Source: Polaribacter sp.
GTDB taxonomy: Bacteria; Bacteroidota; Bacteroidia; Flavobacteriales; Flavobacteriaceae
Length of the DNA stretch: 64,000 bases
Assembly (NCBI GenBank): GCA_029245785.1
Contig: JAQWOR010000074.1
Coordinates: 4,758-68,757, forward strand
Direction of reading: 5' to 3'
This document shows positions 4,827 to 17,185 of the stretch, one piece after another. A program made the position numbers and the translations under genes. Position 1 is the first letter of the stretch. Every line of letters starts with the position of its first letter. A model generated the notes under the pieces. The model ran no database searches and was not told where the DNA came from. It was given only the letters and a program-made list of their open reading frames with translations.

Positions 4827-5738
4827 TTGTTCAAAATCAACTCCATAAAAAAAGCAGATACAGACTATCTAAAAATAGAAAGCATAGATCAGAAATCACA
4901 TGCCCTTATTTATTTAAGCAATGGTGGAAGTCTACAAGAATTAGTCCTACATAAAAAGAAAATAATCCACCAATTAACTACTGCTGACTACACAACATCG
5001 TATGCCTCTGCAATTTTGTTTCCTTTTGCCAATAGAATAGACAAAGCGTCCTATTCATTTCAAGAAAAAAAATACACGCTAAAAGTTAATTTAAAAGAAG
5101 AAAACAATGCCATTCATGGCTTGGTATACAACAAAAAATTTACCCTTAAAGACAAAGAAATTACCCAACAACAAGCGTCGGTAACACTTGTCTATTCTGA
5201 ACAAAACAAAGCTCAAGGATTCCCTTTTATATATACCATAGAACTTATATATACCCTTACAGAAGATGCACTTTCTCTAACAATTTGTATTACAAACAAT
5301 GATGTTGTTTCCTTTCCTTTTAATGTAGGATGGCATCCCTATTTTTATAGTTCTAATTTATACAACAGTAGTTTGTATATTGATAGTAGTAGCAAATTTT
5401 CATTTTCAACTAATGAAATGATTCCTATTAAAACAAAAGACGCAAGCATCCATAAAGAATTACAAATTAAAGATCGTTTTTTTGATGATTGCTATCTTTT
5501 AAATACAGATAAAATGGTATTTAAAACTCCTGATTATCATATACAAATCAATTCATCCTTAGAGAAAAATTATGTACAAATTTTTACACCTTCTGACAGG
5601 AAATCAATCGCAATAGAACCCATTACAGCACCACCAAATAGCTTTAATCATAAGTTAGGACTCGGCATTTTAAATCCGGATGAAAACTATACGGCTTCAT
5701 GGAAAGTCTCCTTAAAATCAACATCTCATGAAAACTAA
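4827..5738 (+). CDS. Aldose 1-epimerase (galactose mutarotase) family
   Basis: LFPFANRI, NAIHG, GWHPYF and IAIEP motifs; start uncertain (TTG 4827 preferred over 4794, which overlaps the GntR gene). Confidence 0.8.
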   Translation: MFKINSIKKADTDYLKIESIDQKSHALIYLSNGGSLQELVLHKKKIIHQLTTADYTTSYASAILFPFANRIDKASYSFQEKKYTLKVNLKEENNAIHGLVYNKKFTLKDKEITQQQASVTLVYSEQNKAQGFPFIYTIELIYTLTEDALSLTICITNNDVVSFPFNVGWHPYFYSSNLYNSSLYIDSSSKFSFSTNEMIPIKTKDASIHKELQIKDRFFDDCYLLNTDKMVFKTPDYHIQINSSLEKNYVQIFTPSDRKSIAIEPITAPPNSFNHKLGLGILNPDENYTASWKVSLKSTSHEN

Positions 5739-7704
5739 AATTTTCATTTCTTTGATGGTAGTACTTCTTTTTTCTAACTGCAAAAAAGAAGAGAAAATAG
5801 CGTATTTGAGTTTTAGCGAAAACAGTTTAGACTATACGAATACACCCACACATAAATTTGACAAAAGCGGACTCATGTTTTCAGACCAAGGCGCTTGGTT
5901 TGGATATAGTTTTCCAGATACTACAGCGACAACGATTGGTTTTTCTGGCCCTTTTTTGATGACACAGCAAAATGGTATTTGGAGCAGTGCTGCTTTGGCG
6001 CATTTAAACATTGAAGGTGTTCTTTTGAAAAAACAGAAAACAACTGCATTCAACAGTCATTTAGAGCAATTTTTTGTTTCTGAAAACATCGAACTAAAAC
6101 AAACATTGGTTTTTTCTTCAGGGCATTCAACATTAATAAAAACTGAAATTAAAAATACCAGTTCAAAATCCATCTCATTGAAATATCATTGGAAACAGGA
6201 GCAATTATTGGCGGATGGGTTACAACTGGAAGTCAAGCACAATGAAGTAACCCTAAGCTCTTCAAAGTCAACTGCCGTTGGTCATCTTATTTTTCCAAAA
6301 GGAACGCAACTATCAGTTACTGATAGCACGTATACTTCTAACATTGCTACCCTTGAATTGAAACCCAAGCAATCTAAAGAATTCACCATTTCTCAATCAT
6401 TTATTTTTCCAGAATATTCTTGGAAAGAAGAGCAAACTCAACTTAAAAACACAACTTTTGATGCCGTTTTAAAAACTAGAAAAGCAGAAAAAGAAAGGCA
6501 AATAAAAGCACTTATAACACATCTGAAACCACAATTTCAAGACAATGCATATGCCGAAGTATTGGCAAAAGCACATCTTACCCTACAAAACAACTGGCGC
6601 ATTCCTGCTGGTGAAATTAAACACGAAGGTTTGTTTCCTAGCTATCATTACAAATGGTTCAATGGTTTTTGGTCTTGGGATTCTTGGAAACATGCCGTCG
6701 GATTGTCTTATTACGATACCTCGCTAGCCAAAAAGCAAGTACAATTAATGTTTGAATTTCAAAACGAAGATGGCTTTATCGTTGATTGTGTATTTAGAGA
6801 CACCTTGATTGAAAAACATAATTATCGAGACACAAAACCTCCGCTATCGGCTTGGGCAGTTGCCAACATCTACGAGAAAGACAAAGACCTTGATTTTATA
6901 AAAGAACTATACCCGAAGTTAAAAAAATACCATGAATGGTGGTACAACAAACGAGACCATGATCAAGATGGATTGTGTGAATACGGCTCTACCGATGGTA
7001 GCTTGATTGCTGCCAAATGGGAAAGCGGCATGGACAATGCCATCCGTTTTGACGACTCTAAAATTGTAAAAAACTCTGAAGGCGCTTATTCTTTAGACCA
7101 AGAAAGTGTAGACCTAAATGCTTATTTATATGCTGAAAAAATCTATTTAGCACTACTGGCTGAAGCATTGCACAAAAATGAGGATGCTAAAAAATTAAAA
7201 AAGGAAGCTGAACTCTTAAAAACACGTATTCAAACCCAATTTTATGATAAAAAAGACGACTGGTTTTACGATACCAATCTAGAAGGAAACACATTTATTA
7301 AAGGTGAAGGAAGCGAAGGCTGGACTGCACTTTGGGCAAATGCAGCAACGCAAAAACAAGCAGAGGCTGTTAAAAACAACATGATGAATCCTAAAAAATT
7401 CTTTACCAAAGTACCTTTTCAAACCATGAGTGCAGCTCACAAAAAATTCAATCCTTTAAAAGGCTATTGGAGAGGCCCAAACTGGTTAGACCAAGCCTAT
7501 TTTGGAGTCAAAGGATTGCGGAATTACGGTTTCAATACCGAAGCAGACAAAGCAACAATTCAAATCATCAAAGGCGCCGAAGGCGTGTTGGAAAAAGGAA
7601 AATCAATTCGAGAAAATTACCATCCAATTACAGGAGAAGGACTAAATGCTCAAAGTTTTAGTTGGAGTGCAGCACATATCATCATGTTATTAGTAAACGA
7701 GTAA
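5728..7704 (+). CDS. GH63/MGH1-like (YgjK-like) inverting alpha-glycosidase, lipoprotein
   Basis: Lipobox LFSNC; [28 protein letters not shown] (catalytic Asp), YWRGPNW, RENY (catalytic Glu), FSWSAA. Confidence 0.85.
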
Positions 7705-14062: not shown

Positions 14063-17000
14063 ATGAAAAAAATCAGTATTCTTTTTATAGTACTTCTCTT
14101 GTTTTCTAGATGCAAACAAGAACCTTTAGATGTTGTTACAGCACAAACATTTCACTACAACCACGAGAAGTTTGAAGAGCATAAATTAGCGCCTAGAGCA
14201 ACATTTTTTACTTTTGAAAGTCCTGATGTTTCAGCAAAAGAAAACTCCAACCGTTTTTTTAGTTTAAATGGCGATTGGAAATTCAATTGGGTAAAAGATC
14301 CTAAACAGCGATCAGCAACATTTCAAAATGAGCATTTTGATGACTCCGATTGGAAGACAATTCCTGTACCTGCAAACTGGGAAGTAGAAGGCTACGGACA
14401 TCCCATTTATTTAGACGAGCGCTATCCGTTTACAACAACATGGCCTGATGCTCCCAAAGATTATAATCCTGTTGGCACATACAGAAAGAAAATTACCCTT
14501 ACCAAAGAATTCTTATCCGAAGATGTTATCCTTTATTTTGAAGGCGTAAAATCTGCCATGTATGTATATGTGAATGGAAATTACGTAGGCTATTCTCAAG
14601 GAAGTAAAACTCCGGCTGAATTTAACATTACAAAACATTTAAAAGAAGGAAAAAACTTAATTGCGCTTCAAATGTTCCGTTGGTCAGATGCTAGTTATTT
14701 GGAGAGTCAAGATATGCTGCGAATGAGTGGTATTGAACGTGATGTGTATTTATATTCGAGACCAAAAGTGTACATCTCTGATTATCATGCCAACACTACG
14801 TTGGATGATTCGTATAAAGACGGAATTTTTAAAGGAACGGTCTCCGTTACAAATGATACTGATACTATAGCAACTCACGATTTAGTTGTTGAAGTTATTG
14901 ACAATGGAAAAGGAGTGATTTATTCCAGGAAAGAGATTCAAATTCCAGCAAATTCAACCATCGATTTTAATGTTGACAAAACCATTAAAAACGCAAAATC
15001 GTGGTCTGCTGAAATTCCAAATTTATACACCTTAAGAATTTCTTTGAATGACAATCAATTCATTAAAAAACAGATTGGCTTTAAGCGTGTAGAAATTAAA
15101 AACGCACAAGTACTCATCAACGGAAAAGCTATTTATATTAGAGGCGTAAATCGTCATGAAACAGATCCTTTTACTGGGCATGTAGTTTCTAGAGCATCCA
15201 TGGAAAAAGACATTCAATTGATGAAACAACACAACATCAATGCGGTACGTTCTTCGCATTACCCAAACGACCCATATTGGTTAGATTTGTGCGACAAATA
15301 CGGCTTATATGTGGTTGATGAAGCAAATATTGAAAGTCATCCTTTGGCGATTGATGAAAAGACACAGATTGGAAACGAGATGTCTTGGCTGCCTGCTCAC
15401 ATGATGCGCACACAACGCATGTATTACCGAGATAGAAATCATGTTTCAATTTATTCTTGGTCATTAGGAAATGAAGCTGGCGAAGGTGACATTTTTAGAA
15501 GTACATACAAATGGCTAAAAGCACAAGACAAGAACAGAATTGTGCAATACGAACCTGCAGGAAAAGAAGAATACACCGATTTGTATTGTCCGATGTACCC
15601 TAAACCTGACTATTTAATCAAGCATGGAAAGTCGAATTCAGACAAGCCTTCTATCATGATTGAATATGCACATGCTATGGGAAATTCGGTAGGGAATTTA
15701 CAAGACTATTGGGACATTATTGAAACCTATCCAAATTTACAAGGTGGTTTTATTTGGGATTGGGTAGATCAAAGTTTAGAATACAAAGACGATAACGGCA
15801 AGCCCTATTTGGCCTATGGTCATGATTACCACCCTGATTTACCTACGGATGGTAATTTTTTAAACAATGGTTTGGTGGATCCATATCGGAATCCGCATCC
15901 GCATTTATCAGAAGTAAAAAAAGTATATGAACCTGTTCAATTCACCTATCTAGGAAATGGAACCATTGAAATTGAAAACAAAAATTTCTTTGCTAATTTT
16001 TCTAACCAAGAATTGCAATGGAAACTTTTGAGAAACGGAAAAGAGGTGCTTTCTGAAAAGAATATTTCTTTACACATACAGGCACAACAAACAAAAAGGA
16101 TGCACTTTAAAAAGATACCTACACTATTTGTTTTAGAAGATGAATTCATCTTAGAAGTAAGTTTGATTCAAAAAAATACTTCAAATTTAATTCCGAAAGG
16201 GTACGAAATTGCTTGGGATCAATTCACAGTAAACAAAGGGGTTTCAACACAGAATACTCTTGTAAAAAACAACGCATTGACCCTTGAGAAAAAGGACGCT
16301 TCTTATCTGATAAAGAACAAGAATACTCGCTATAAAATTGATGTTGTTTCAGGAGAAGTTAGTTTCTGGGAATTTGAAGGAAAAGAAATTACCCGCCAAC
16401 CCATTCGTCTAAATTTCTGGCGTCCACCAACAGATAATGATTTAGGAAACGGCATGGACAAGTGGGCGAAAATTTGGCAAAATGCTACCTATACTTACAA
16501 AGCAACATTGATCGAAAAGCCAAGAAAAATCACTATTGGAATTTCATATAAAGTTGCATACCAATTACCAAATAATGAAGCGACAGTACACGTACAATAC
16601 ACCTTAATTTCTAATGGAAGTCTTCGTGTTGCATATTCTTACAGACCAAATCAACAAAAACTACCGAACATTCCAAGATTGGGAATGTATGTTACATTAA
16701 ACAACTCTTTTACGGCTATTTCTTGGCACGGAAAAGGCCCTGATGAAAGTTATTGGGACCGAAAAACAGGTCAAAAAATAGGCGTGTATTCTGAAAAAAT
16801 AAAAGAAGCATTTCACGTCTATTCTCGTCCACAAGAAACAGGAAACAAAACAGCCATTCGTTCCATGCAAGTTCATTCTAATGACCTTAGCTTAGAAGTA
16901 CAAGGTTCTCAATTATTAAACGCTAGCGCTTGGCCATTTTCGATGAAAGAACTCGATTTTAATTCTGAAGAAGCTGGAGAATCTGCTTCTGGATTGGTTC

Positions 17001-17185
17001 CTGTGACCAAAAAACATGGAGCCGATATTAAAATAGGAACTACGGTACAGTGGAATATCGATTTAAATCAAATGGGTGTTGGTGGCGATACTTCTTGGGG
17101 AAGACAAGTACACCAAGAATACACCATTTCTGCAACTAAAAAATATAGTTATACCTTTACAATTCAACCGACTAAAAACCAATAA
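14063..17185 (+). CDS. Second GH2 beta-galactosidase, lipoprotein
   Basis: Lipobox-like FSRC; [37 protein letters not shown]. Confidence 0.92.

What the first reader, a model, noticed from the sequence alone, without database searches (positions are those of the whole stretch)
5728..17185. Candidate bacterial pathway for Glc-alpha1,2-Gal-beta-O-hydroxylysine
Seen: GH63, GH2, kinase/PLP fusion and GH2 lie in one tight run (gaps of 13, -4 and 10 bp) with catalytic motifs intact. Established: the collagen O-glycan is Glc-alpha1,2-Gal-beta1-O-Hyl. Glycosynthase and structural work on the E. coli GH63 YgjK pointed to Glc-alpha1,2-Gal as a fitting disaccharide, and ygjK lies in the ebgA (GH2) gene cluster. 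In mammals, HYKK/AGPHD1 and PHYKPL/AGXT2L2 convert Hyl to 2-aminoadipate semialdehyde, and the glucosidase step is done by a GH65 enzyme (PGGHG). Inference: GH63 removes Glc, GH2 removes Gal, the mutarotase anomerises the sugars, and the fusion phosphorylates and eliminates Hyl. This would give YgjK-like enzymes a natural substrate and might explain the cryptic ebg-ygj cluster.
Basis: partly seen in the sequence, partly recalled or inferred. Interest (0 to 1): 0.92.

Follow-up and report, generated by a model that had tools for sequence, protein, structure and literature searches.

The report
Bacterial collagen glycan–hydroxylysine utilisation locus
A marine flavobacterium carries a tight, widely conserved operon that most likely removes the glucose-galactose sugar from collagen's hydroxylysine and then breaks down the hydroxylysine, a route I found no description of in bacteria; no enzyme has been assayed, so this is a prediction.

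Summary
The genes run in one strand: aldose epimerase, GH63 (YgjK-like), GH2, a kinase-M23-PLP fusion, GH2, then a DUF4440 lipoprotein. Gaps are 13, -4 and 10 bp, and the catalytic residues are intact.

The operon sits among genes for trans-3- and trans-4-hydroxyproline catabolism and proline-specific peptidases.

- **Conservation:** across about 160 related loci the core GH63-fusion-GH2 recurs. Of GH63-anchored loci of at least 20 kb, 55 of 64 have the fusion next door.
- **Frequent extras in relatives:** SusC/SusD, a sodium:solute symporter, galactokinase and hydroxyproline genes.
- **Kinase domain:** it is homologous end to end with animal hydroxylysine kinase (profile score 235-268 bits). 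The best solved kinase scores 40 bits or less.
- **PLP domain:** it is about 50% identical to human ETNPPL/PHYKPL and folds like the two solved phospho-lyases.

Limits: sequence cannot separate phospho-hydroxylysine from phosphoethanolamine. The GH63 and GH2 specificities are inferred. Nothing has been assayed, and the M23 and DUF4440 parts are unexplained. I found no prior description in the searchable literature.

Verdict: a new variant built from known families. Confidence about 0.65, interest about 0.78.

The parts
3815..4813 (+). Regulator: GntR-type HTH plus a LacI-like periplasmic-binding-protein sugar-sensing domain (AraR-like architecture). It is the probable repressor of the operon.
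   Evidence: Pfam GntR + Peripla_BP_3. It occupies the same position upstream of GH63 in 17-23 related loci, and a TPR regulator replaces it in others.
4794..5738 (+). Aldose 1-epimerase (mutarotase) with no evident signal peptide. Inferred to convert the released beta-anomers to alpha-galactose or alpha-glucose.
   Evidence: Pfam Aldose_epim E 7e-44; translation; overlaps the GH63 start by 11 bp; present in 22 of 79 GH63-anchored loci.
5728..7704 (+). GH63 YgjK-like inverting alpha-glucosidase with an N-terminal signal peptide and Cys (lipoprotein-like). Inferred to remove Glc from Glc-alpha1,2-Gal-Hyl.
   Evidence: Pfam YgjK_N/MGH1-like/GH63. Best solved relative is YgjK, E 2.8e-74, 28% identity. 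D318/D436/E629 correspond to YgjK D324/D501/E727. NCBIfam best match is the YgjK-type alpha-glucosidase, below its cut-off.
7718..11008 (+). GH2a, a LacZ-type beta-galactosidase with a signal peptide if it starts at 7718. This accessory paralogue is present in only about 10 of 80 relatives.
   Evidence: Five GH2/LacZ domains. Best solved relatives are 6S6Z/3DEC/LacZ. Catalytic Glu motifs are present. It is 38% identical to GH2b and 32% to EbgA. An alternative start at 7760 is used in a public gene call.
11023..14052 (+). Cytoplasmic three-domain fusion (ORF opens at TTG 11005; likely start ATG 11023). Inferred to convert hydroxylysine to 5-phosphohydroxylysine and then to 2-aminoadipate semialdehyde, ammonia and phosphate.
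   Evidence: Pfam APH + Peptidase_M23 + Aminotran_3. Full-length match to NCBIfam PRK06148 'hypothetical protein'. No signal peptide. AlphaFold model has pLDDT 91 and pTM 0.91.
11029..12000 (+). Kinase domain of the fusion, homologous to hydroxylysine kinase (HYKK/AGPHD1).
   Evidence: BLASTP against human HYKK: 23% identity over 337 aa, E 4e-26. hhalign probability 100%, E 2e-58. The profile scores HYKK orthologues at 235-268 bits against 40 bits or less for any solved kinase. Catalytic D204/N209/D226 are invariant.
12337..12630 (+). M23 (LytM-type) metallopeptidase domain inside the fusion. Role unknown.
   Evidence: Pfam E 3e-15. HLGID and HLH zinc motifs are intact here. They are kept in about 22 of 29 diverse fusions and lost in 5-7.
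12754..14022 (+). PLP-dependent phospho-lyase domain (class-III aminotransferase fold) of the ETNPPL/PHYKPL group.
   Evidence: Human ETNPPL 6TOR E 1e-132, 50.6% identity. PHYKPL orthologues 46-48%, A1RDF1 phospholyase 38%, E. coli PatA 31%. Foldseek TM 0.94 and 0.93 to the two solved phospho-lyases. The PLP lysine is invariant.
14063..17185 (+). GH2b, the core LacZ-type beta-galactosidase, with a signal peptide and Cys (lipoprotein-like). Inferred to remove Gal from Gal-beta-O-Hyl.
   Evidence: Five GH2/LacZ domains. Solved relatives. Catalytic motifs. It follows the fusion in 45 of 80 and 54 of 79 related loci.
17196..17627 (+). DUF4440 (NTF2-like) small lipoprotein, the last gene of the operon. 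Role unknown.
   Evidence: Sequence and signal peptide MKKALLIFSACMLFLSC. Pfam DUF4440. Present in 22 of 80 and 27 of 79 related loci.
1587..3717 (+). Context: trans-3-hydroxyproline pathway. Delta1-pyrroline-2-carboxylate reductase (1587-2546) and trans-3-Hyp dehydratase (2578-3717).
   Evidence: NCBIfam Pyr2C/Pip2C reductase above its cut-off; the dehydratase is the best hit for the second gene. The Cys/Thr signature DRCPTGSG contrasts with DRSPCGTG in the epimerase.
134..1450 (-). Context: S37/S28-family serine peptidase (prolyl-type exopeptidase family).
   Evidence: Pfam Peptidase_S37 E 8e-57 and S28. It recurs near the cluster in relatives.
17624..25778 (-). Context: convergent operon for collagen peptide and trans-4-hydroxyproline catabolism. 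Genes are M24 Xaa-Pro aminopeptidase (17624-18919), D-amino-acid/D-Hyp dehydrogenase (18921-20168), 4-Hyp epimerase (20182-21192), DUF885 (21182-22906), 2,5-dioxovalerate (alpha-ketoglutarate semialdehyde) dehydrogenase-like (22910-24493) and a DHDPS-family enzyme (24864-25778). An AraC regulator lies at 25926-26765 (+).
   Evidence: Pfam. NCBIfam: 4-hydroxyproline epimerase above its cut-off, D-amino-acid dehydrogenase, and 2,5-dioxovalerate/KGSA dehydrogenase as best hits. The same genes flank the fusion or GH63 in many relatives.

Best explanation
This is the enzymatic core of a flavobacterial glycan-utilisation locus aimed at the collagen O-glycan and its amino acid, Glc-alpha1,2-Gal-beta-O-5-hydroxylysine.

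Proposed mechanism, with all steps inferred unless marked:
1. Collagen glycopeptides are imported. In many relatives a SusC/SusD pair next to the locus would do this.
2. Outside the cytoplasm, the secreted GH63 removes the terminal alpha1,2-glucose. GH63 enzymes are inverting, so beta-glucose is released.
3. The secreted LacZ-type GH2b, and the accessory GH2a, cleave the beta-galactosyl-O-hydroxylysine bond.
4. Sugars and hydroxylysine enter the cell. In relatives, a sodium:solute symporter and galactokinase are encoded right after GH2b. The cytoplasmic mutarotase supplies alpha-galactose.
5. The cytoplasmic fusion phosphorylates the 5-hydroxyl of hydroxylysine through its HYKK-like domain.
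6. Its PLP domain then eliminates phosphate and ammonia, giving 2-aminoadipate semialdehyde, which joins lysine catabolism.

Shown here: gene content, order, conservation, homologies, intact catalytic residues, and predicted secreted versus cytoplasmic location.

Inferred: every substrate.
For: 1. Anatomy. The tight co-directional run is regulator-epimerase-GH63-GH2-fusion-GH2-DUF4440. Both GH2 and the GH63 carry N-terminal signal peptides and the fusion has none.

2. Context. The operon is flanked by a trans-3-Hyp dehydratase with the Cys/Thr signature, a Pyr2C reductase, a 4-Hyp epimerase, a D-amino-acid dehydrogenase, a KGSA-dehydrogenase-like enzyme, a DHDPS-like enzyme, and M24, S37/S28 and DUF885 proteins. 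Hydroxyproline and hydroxylysine co-occur in collagen (established knowledge).

3. Conservation, counted in loci of at least 20 kb:
- Fusion-anchored loci (60): 43 have GH63, 42 have GH2, 25 have Hyp genes.
- GH63-anchored loci (64): 55 have the fusion, 51 have GH2, 33 have Hyp genes.
- Median gaps in the core are 0 and 9.5 nt.
- In some Tenacibaculum loci the fusion sits with Hyp genes and no glycosidases.

4. Relatives add SusC/SusD (about 50 loci), an SSF symporter (28) and galactokinase (26), in the order GH2-SSF-GalK. This fits a small galactose-containing glycan. No other CAZyme families recur.

5. Kinase domain. Homology to HYKK runs end to end. The profile scores HYKK orthologues at 235-268 bits, against 40 bits or less for amicoumacin kinase, homoserine kinase II and the entry 6EF6.

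6. PLP domain. It is 50.6% identical to human ETNPPL and 46-48% to PHYKPL. It groups with the phospho-lyases and away from PatA. Foldseek gives TM 0.94 and 0.93 to the only two solved phospho-lyases.

7. GH63 is a YgjK homologue with its catalytic triad conserved. YgjK has been crystallised with Glc-alpha1,2-Gal bound, PDB entry 3W7W.

8. E. coli independently pairs a GH2 (EbgA) with a GH63 (YgjK) and an amino-acid permease (YgjI) in one cluster.

9. Many carriers are animal-associated or come from bone-degrading communities (titles; PMC7883544).
Against: - No enzyme of this clade has been assayed.
- The GH63 is only 28% identical to YgjK. The bioRxiv paper on GH176 lists nigerose as the preferred GH63 substrate.
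- The PLP domain is at least as close to the phosphoethanolamine lyase as to the phosphohydroxylysine lyase. The animal paralogues split after the bacterial branch, so sequence cannot name the substrate.
- The kinase domain is only 23% identical to HYKK.
- LacZ-type GH2 enzymes are generic beta-galactosidases, and nothing in the sequence shows activity on Gal-Hyl.
- This window has no SusC/SusD, symporter, galactokinase or aminoadipate-semialdehyde dehydrogenase near the operon.
- In about a quarter of flavobacterial loci the fusion stands alone. Distant fusions in other phyla lie in uninformative contexts.
- The M23 domain and the DUF4440 protein have no place in the proposed scheme.
Confidence: 0.65

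Rival explanations
1. This is a general scavenging locus for small beta-galactosides and alpha-glucosides from other marine glycans or glycoproteins. The fusion handles a different 1,2-amino alcohol, such as ethanolamine/phosphoethanolamine from lipid head groups or aminopropanol, giving an aldehyde. The link to hydroxyproline genes would reflect general use of animal tissue rather than one shared substrate.
For: - The PLP domain is slightly closer to human ETNPPL (50.6%) than to PHYKPL (46-48%), and the tree cannot separate the two activities.
- The GH2 enzymes are generic LacZ-type.
- Distant fusions occur without collagen-related neighbours.
- GH63 enzymes are reported to prefer nigerose.
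Against: - The cytoplasmic fusion lies between two secreted glycosidases, with near-zero gaps, in more than 80 loci.
- The kinase half is HYKK-like. No choline/ethanolamine-kinase Pfam family matched it at E<=0.001, and the solved choline and ethanolamine kinases are not among the best 60 of 90 matches to the kinase profile.
- The only recurrent CAZymes are GH63 and GH2, which fits a disaccharide.
- The fusion stays with Hyp genes even where the glycosidases are missing.
Confidence: 0.17
2. The pathway chemistry is as proposed, but the natural substrate is glycosylated hydroxylysine from non-collagen sources (collagen-like domains of other proteins, viral or microbial collagen-like proteins), or a different glycosylated amino alcohol such as a galactosyl-sphingoid base.
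For: Glc-Gal-Hyl also occurs on collagen-like domains such as adiponectin (PMC3510199, listed) and in mimivirus (PMC9546862, listed). Nothing in the sequences specifies the protein source.
Against: Collagen is by far the main source of Hyl glycosides (established knowledge). The neighbours are 3-Hyp and 4-Hyp pathways and prolyl peptidases. No lipid-handling genes recur.
Confidence: 0.07
3. The adjacency carries no functional coupling. The glycosidases and the fusion act in unrelated processes and were brought together by drift or shared regulation only.
For: The fusion stands alone in some flavobacterial genomes and in other phyla.
Against: - Order and very small gaps are conserved across many genera, whether loci are anchored on the fusion or on GH63.
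- As a rough estimate of mine, a random 20-kb window of a 4-Mb genome would hold a given 8-kb gene cluster in under 1% of cases. The observed figure is 42-52% for Hyp genes.
Confidence: 0.04

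Closest known systems
Mammalian hydroxylysine catabolism: HYKK (AGPHD1) plus PHYKPL (AGXT2L2), with the paralogue ETNPPL (Veiga-da-Cunha et al. 2012, J Biol Chem 287:7246; cited; paper not held)
   Same: The same two enzyme families and the same inferred chemistry: phosphorylation of a 1,2-amino alcohol, then PLP-dependent elimination of phosphate and ammonia. 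Homology is clear for both halves. From my own recollection, bacterial kinase-lyase fusions were the clue that identified HYKK. A 2025 review cites that paper as a gene-fusion example.
   Different: Here both activities are in one 1009-aa polypeptide with an M23 domain between them. The gene lies inside a glycosidase operon. The bacterial protein has not been characterised and NCBIfam still names the family 'hypothetical protein'. The substrate cannot be assigned from sequence.
PGGHG (ATHL1), the vertebrate protein-glucosylgalactosylhydroxylysine glucosidase, family GH65
   Same: It catalyses the reaction proposed for the GH63 here: removal of alpha1,2-glucose from Glc-Gal-Hyl by an inverting alpha-glucosidase.
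   Different: It belongs to another family and clan (GH65, clan GH-L, versus GH63, clan GH-G). If the proposal holds, the two would be analogous enzymes, not homologous ones.
E. coli ebgR-ebgA-ebgC-ygjI-ygjJ-ygjK cluster (YgjK GH63, EbgA GH2)
   Same: A GH63 and a LacZ-type GH2 sit in one co-directional cluster. The window's GH63 is 28% identical to YgjK and its GH2 enzymes are about 31% identical to EbgA. YgjK binds Glc-alpha1,2-Gal in PDB entry 3W7W. YgjI is an amino-acid permease, which would suit an amino-acid glycoside.
   Different: The E. coli cluster has no kinase-lyase fusion, no Hyp genes and no SusC/SusD. EbgA needs EbgC, and no DUF386 partner was seen among the ORFs examined here. 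The natural substrate in E. coli is unknown, so the link is circumstantial.
Bacterial hydroxyproline catabolic clusters and the Colwellia collagen-utilisation cluster (PMC7883544)
   Same: The flanking genes are shared: 4-Hyp epimerase, D-Hyp dehydrogenase, deaminase, KGSA dehydrogenase, and Xaa-Pro peptidases.
   Different: The Colwellia cluster, as read, lists no glycosidase and no hydroxylysine enzyme, and the paper does not mention hydroxylysine. This locus would add the glycan and hydroxylysine branch, which has not been described.
Bacteroidota polysaccharide utilisation loci (SusC/SusD-type PULs)
   Same: In about 50 related loci a SusC/SusD pair and a regulator lie just upstream of GH63, the normal PUL layout.
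   Different: The target would be a disaccharide on an amino acid rather than a polysaccharide. An amino-acid catabolic enzyme is embedded in the operon. This particular window has no SusC/SusD.

Membership tests
GH63 (YgjK-type alpha-glucosidase) | N-terminal beta-sandwich plus an (alpha/alpha)6 catalytic domain | tested here: met
   Pfam YgjK_N, MGH1-like_GH and Glyco_hydro_63. YgjK E 2.8e-74 over nearly the full length.
GH63 (YgjK-type alpha-glucosidase) | Catalytic acid Asp, base Glu and fixer Asp (YgjK D501, E727, D324) | tested here: met
   D436, E629 and D318 align with them.
GH63 (YgjK-type alpha-glucosidase) | Hydrolysis of Glc-alpha1,2-Gal, free or on hydroxylysine | not testable with these tools
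   Needs an enzyme assay. The residues of the +1 subsite could not be compared because the ligand contacts were not available.
GH2, LacZ-type beta-galactosidase | Five-domain LacZ architecture including the Bgal_small_N domain | tested here: met
   Both GH2a and GH2b. Solved relatives 6S6Z, 3DEC and LacZ at E<=1e-146.
GH2, LacZ-type beta-galactosidase | Acid/base and nucleophile glutamates (LacZ E461, E537) | tested here: met
   NEAG and EY(A/T)HAMGNS motifs are present in both proteins. The motif assignment comes from established LacZ knowledge.
GH2, LacZ-type beta-galactosidase | Activity on Gal-beta-O-hydroxylysine | not testable with these tools
   To my knowledge no enzyme with this activity has been characterised. 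Needs an assay.
Hydroxylysine kinase (HYKK/AGPHD1) family | End-to-end homology to HYKK, closer than to other characterised small-molecule kinases | tested here: met
   BLASTP E 4e-26 over 337 aa. hhalign probability 100% over 321 columns. The profile scores HYKK orthologues at 235-268 bits against 40 bits or less for solved kinases.
Hydroxylysine kinase (HYKK/AGPHD1) family | Catalytic HxDxxxxN loop and metal-binding D(F/Y)GD | tested here: met
   HNDANDNN and IDYGD. D204, N209 and D226 are invariant in 29 fusions.
Hydroxylysine kinase (HYKK/AGPHD1) family | Phosphorylation of 5-hydroxy-L-lysine | not testable with these tools
   Identity to HYKK is only 23%. The specificity is inferred from gene context.
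ETNPPL/PHYKPL phospho-lyases (class-III aminotransferase fold) | Fold-type I class-III PLP enzyme with the PLP lysine, grouping with the characterised phospho-lyases rather than the transaminases | tested here: met
   K849 is invariant. Identity is 50.6% to ETNPPL, 46-48% to PHYKPL, 38% to A1RDF1 and 31% to PatA, and the NJ tree groups it with the phospho-lyases. Foldseek TM 0.94 and 0.93 to 6TOR and 5G4I.
ETNPPL/PHYKPL phospho-lyases (class-III aminotransferase fold) | Assignment to 5-phosphohydroxylysine rather than phosphoethanolamine | tested here: inconclusive
   ETNPPL and PHYKPL are 66% identical and form one animal clade, sister to the bacterial domains.
Peptidase M23 (LytM/lysostaphin type) | HxxxD and HxH zinc-binding motifs | tested here: inconclusive
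   Both motifs are present in this protein (HLGID, HLH). They are lost in 5-7 of 29 diverse fusions, so catalysis is not a conserved requirement of the family.
Bacteroidota PUL | Adjacent SusC/SusD pair | tested here: not met
   No SusC/SusD in the 64-kb window. The feature is met in about 50 related loci carrying the same core.
trans-3- and trans-4-hydroxyproline catabolic pathways (context genes) | Cys/Thr dehydratase plus Pyr2C reductase; Cys/Cys 4-Hyp epimerase plus D-Hyp dehydrogenase, deaminase and KGSA dehydrogenase | tested here: met
   NCBIfam hits, with the epimerase and the reductase above their cut-offs. DRCPTGSG versus DRSPCGTG. The deaminase and dehydrogenase roles are inferred from family and context.

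The most novel reading that the evidence does not exclude
This would be the first bacterial route that fully consumes collagen's Glc-Gal-hydroxylysine. It would include:
- a GH63 that performs the PGGHG reaction by convergence;
- the first beta-galactosidase for Gal-hydroxylysine, a bond that, to my knowledge, mammals do not cleave, since Gal-Hyl is excreted in urine;
- a single polypeptide that joins hydroxylysine kinase and phospho-lyase around an M23 domain. That domain might itself trim hydroxylysine-containing peptides, which would give a peptidase-kinase-lyase.

By extension, the natural substrate of YgjK-type GH63 enzymes, and of the long-puzzling E. coli ebg-ygj cluster, would be an amino-acid glycoside of this kind.
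Probability: 0.4. Interest if true: 0.88.

Novelty: new variant of a known kind. Interest (0 to 1): 0.78.

Why it matters
Collagen is the most abundant animal protein. Bacterial use of its hydroxyproline is known, but I found no account of how bacteria deal with its glycosylated hydroxylysine.

If the prediction holds, it would:
- add a missing branch to microbial collagen turnover, for example on fish, jellyfish, sponges and bone falls;
- give a natural function to YgjK-type GH63 enzymes, and possibly to the E. coli ebg-ygj cluster, whose native role has been an open question for decades;
- name a large family of roughly 1000-aa proteins that are annotated as 'hypothetical' or 'aminotransferase';
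- supply enzymes for removing or analysing collagen glycans, including a Gal-Hyl galactosidase, an activity not known from any source as far as I am aware.

Each of these points can be tested directly with a few recombinant proteins and with cultured carriers.

Tried and rejected
- **Single-sequence PDB search with the kinase domain:** no hit at E<=1. A profile search was needed.
- **Names of stand-alone kinase relatives and distant fusions:** uninformative.
- **Gene context of distant fusions** (Acidobacteriota and others): no collagen or sugar genes, so this neither helps nor hurts.
- **Tree of the PLP domain with ETNPPL, PHYKPL, A1RDF1 and PatA:** cannot tell the two lyase specificities apart.
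- **Expression data:** only DNA metagenome runs hold this sequence, and no RNA run was found.
- **Promoter and terminator scan:** no more sites than in shuffled sequence.
- **Inverted repeats in three upstream regions:** none found.
- **Key paper:** the 2012 paper was not held under its DOI or either PMC id.
- **Search for a prior description:** searches for a bacterial Glc-Gal-Hyl route, or for GH63 or YgjK together with collagen or hydroxylysine, found nothing relevant. The last search was poorly targeted and told me nothing.
- **Whole-fusion fold search:** it only returned the PLP domain's relatives. It gave no view of the M23 or kinase neighbours.
- **Considered and rejected, aminopropanol or homoserine kinase function:** those solved kinases score 40 bits or less against the profile, versus more than 235 bits for HYKK.
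- **Considered and rejected, mobile element or phage origin:** nothing in the composition (GC 0.31-0.38 throughout) or the gene content suggests one.

Full report
**1. The observation.** The window has a GC content of 0.31-0.38 throughout. It matches contigs from marine metagenomes. Pfam confirms a GH63/YgjK-like protein, two five-domain LacZ-type GH2 proteins, and a fusion of an APH-family kinase with a class-III aminotransferase-fold domain.

The run is longer than stated. A GntR/sugar-binding regulator (3815-4813) and an aldose epimerase (4794-5738, overlapping GH63 by 11 bp) precede it. A DUF4440 lipoprotein (17196-17627) follows GH2b after 10 bp.

The fusion most likely starts at ATG 11023, since homologues are 1008-1010 aa and align from residue 7.

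**2. Catalytic competence and location.**
- GH63 D318, D436 and E629 align with the YgjK fixer Asp324, acid Asp501 and base Glu727 (residue roles).
- Both GH2 proteins keep the LacZ-type catalytic glutamate motifs.
- In an alignment of 29 diverse fusions of about 1000 aa, the kinase residues D204, N209 and D226 and the PLP lysine K849 are invariant.
- GH63, GH2b and DUF4440 have hydrophobic N-terminal signals ending in Cys. GH2a has a signal peptide if it starts at 7718. The fusion and the epimerase have none.

The glycosidases are therefore predicted to act outside the cytoplasm and the fusion inside it.

**3. The surroundings are about collagen.**

Upstream lie an S37/S28 peptidase, a Delta1-pyrroline-2-carboxylate reductase (NCBIfam, above its cut-off) and a proline-racemase-family protein. 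That protein's second catalytic residue is Thr (DRCPTGSG), which is the signature of trans-3-hydroxyproline dehydratase.

Downstream, on the other strand, lie:
- an M24 Xaa-Pro aminopeptidase;
- a D-amino-acid dehydrogenase;
- a 4-hydroxyproline epimerase (above its cut-off, Cys/Cys);
- a DUF885 protein;
- a 2,5-dioxovalerate-dehydrogenase-like enzyme;
- a DHDPS-family enzyme;
- an AraC regulator.

3-Hyp, 4-Hyp and glycosylated Hyl occur together in collagen (established knowledge).

**4. Conservation.** The fusion is 71-79% identical across many genera of marine Flavobacteriaceae.

| Anchor gene | Loci of at least 20 kb | GH63 | Fusion | GH2 | Hyp genes | SusC/SusD |
|---|---|---|---|---|---|---|
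| Fusion | 60 | 43 | 60 | 42 | 25 | 20 |
| GH63 | 64 | 64 | 55 | 51 | 33 | 25 |

Most GH63 loci without the fusion are short contigs or carry Hyp genes instead. Gaps in the core are very small, with medians of 0 and 9.5 nt.

Clustering all ORFs of the loci showed further recurrent neighbours: SusC/SusD (about 50 loci), an SSF symporter (28), galactokinase (26), a prolidase-like M24, an M20 peptidase and a DPP-IV.

The common order is SusD-SusC on one strand, then on the other strand regulator-[epimerase]-GH63-[GH2a]-fusion-GH2-SSF-GalK-DUF4440. No other CAZyme family recurs, which fits a disaccharide target that yields galactose. The window itself lacks SusC/SusD, SSF and GalK.

Several carriers are animal-associated. 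Three are MAGs from a marine bone-degradation study.

**5. The fusion.**

*Kinase domain.* It aligns end to end with human HYKK: 23% identity, E 4e-26. The HYKK sequence was retrieved from the database and carries that name in many orthologues. Profile-profile comparison gives probability 100% and E 2e-58.

The same profile scores HYKK orthologues at 235-268 bits. The best solved kinases reach 40 bits or less: amicoumacin kinase, homoserine kinase II and the entry 6EF6.

*PLP domain.*

| Compared with | Identity |
|---|---|
| Human ETNPPL | 50.6% |
| PHYKPL orthologues | 46-48% |
| Arthrobacter phospholyase A1RDF1 | 38% |
| E. coli PatA | 31% |

ETNPPL and PHYKPL are 66% identical to each other and form one clade, sister to the bacterial domains. 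The domain therefore belongs to the phospho-lyase group, but the tree cannot say which phosphorylated amino alcohol it takes.

*Model.* An AlphaFold model of the whole protein is confident (pLDDT 91, pTM 0.91). Its best structural matches are the two solved phospho-lyases, at TM 0.94 and 0.93.

*M23 domain.* Its zinc motifs are intact here but lost in 5-7 of 29 diverse fusions. Its role is open: it may be a scaffold or an accessory peptidase.

NCBIfam still calls the family 'hypothetical protein' (PRK06148).

**6. The glycosidases.** The GH63 is 28% identical to YgjK over nearly its full length. YgjK has been crystallised with Glc-alpha1,2-Gal bound, PDB entry 3W7W. The vertebrate enzyme for this bond, PGGHG, is a GH65, so a GH63 doing the same job would be convergent.

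The two GH2 proteins are 38% identical to each other and about 31% to EbgA. GH2b is the conserved one.

In E. coli K-12, ebgR-ebgA-ebgC-ygjI-ygjJ-ygjK is one co-directional cluster, and YgjI is an amino-acid permease. A GH2, a GH63 and an amino-acid transporter together fit an amino-acid glycoside. This is only circumstantial.

**7. Mechanism, its rivals and confidence.** The best-supported reading is sequential removal of Glc by GH63 and Gal by GH2 from collagen-derived Glc-Gal-Hyl, as glycopeptides or as the free glyco-amino acid. Uptake follows, then mutarotation and the Leloir pathway for galactose. Finally the fusion phosphorylates hydroxylysine and eliminates phosphate and ammonia to give 2-aminoadipate semialdehyde.

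Every substrate in this scheme is inferred. I put this reading at about 0.65.

The main rival, at about 0.17, is a generic Gal/Glc scavenging locus whose fusion acts on ethanolamine or another amino alcohol. The lyase tree allows it. The HYKK-like kinase, the position of the fusion inside the glycosidase operon, and its persistence next to Hyp genes when the glycosidases are absent all argue against it.

Distant fusions in other phyla have uninformative contexts. The substrate assignment therefore rests on the flavobacterial clade alone.

**8. Novelty.** Searches of the held literature found no bacterial pathway for Glc-Gal-Hyl, and no link of GH63 or YgjK to collagen or hydroxylysine. The Colwellia collagen cluster lists no glycosidase or hydroxylysine enzyme, and that paper does not mention hydroxylysine.

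The use of bacterial kinase-lyase fusions to identify mammalian HYKK dates from 2012. That is my recollection. The paper was not held, though a 2025 review cites it as a gene-fusion example.

The locus is made of known families in a new combination with a new proposed substrate, so I rate it a new variant of a known kind. It is of high interest because a few assays would settle it.

Noticed in passing
window 12337-12630 (inside the fusion gene): A LytM-type M23 metallopeptidase domain with intact zinc motifs sits in a cytoplasmic kinase-lyase protein. The motifs are lost in 5-7 of 29 diverse family members. The whole-protein model is very confident (pTM 0.91), which suggests a rigid three-domain unit.
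   Followed up: partly
window 17196-17627: A small DUF4440 (NTF2-like) lipoprotein closes the operon. It recurs after GH2, SSF or GalK in about a third of related loci. Its function is unknown.
   Followed up: partly
window 21182-22906 (-): A DUF885 protein (574 aa, Pfam E 5e-151) is embedded between the 4-Hyp epimerase and the KGSA-dehydrogenase-like gene. It recurs there in relatives and may be a peptidase of the hydroxyproline route.
   Followed up: no
window 11029-12000 versus 12754-14022: The two halves of the fusion have diverged very unequally from their animal counterparts. The PLP domain is 46-51% identical to human PHYKPL/ETNPPL, while the kinase domain is only 23% identical to human HYKK.
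   Followed up: partly
window 56772-58133 (+): A saccharopine dehydrogenase gene, that is, a second route producing 2-aminoadipate semialdehyde. It suggests the organism can process that product. ETF alpha/beta genes lie at 41922-43780 (-).
   Followed up: no
window 26788-28299 (-): A SASA-family (sialate O-acetylesterase-like) carbohydrate esterase lies just beyond the AraC regulator. It may be another enzyme acting on host glycans.
   Followed up: no
window 45129-47630 (+): An 833-aa protein with a CarboxypepD_reg domain plus DUF5686, resembling an outer-membrane protein. It is the only weak SusC-like match in the window (27% identity over 96 aa).
   Followed up: no
L016, L018, L038 (MAGs BB42, BB35, BB24) and other loci: The same core locus occurs in MAGs whose isolate names (BB24, BB35, BB42) resemble those used in a marine bone-degradation study. 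It also occurs in species isolated from fish gut, sponges, an anemone, an ascidian, abalone, a sea urchin and coral. This ecology fits a collagen substrate.
   Followed up: partly
L081 (E. coli K-12, record positions 3221466-3231239): In the ebg-ygj cluster the gene between ebgC and ygjJ, ygjI, is an APC-family amino-acid permease. The putrescine aminotransferase gene patA (class-III fold) lies just upstream of ebgR.
   Followed up: partly
L153, L160, L161: GH63-fusion pairs at 56-63% identity occur in MAGs labelled Latescibacterota, Sphingobacteriales and Saprospiraceae. This is either real spread beyond Flavobacteriaceae or mis-binned contigs.
   Followed up: no
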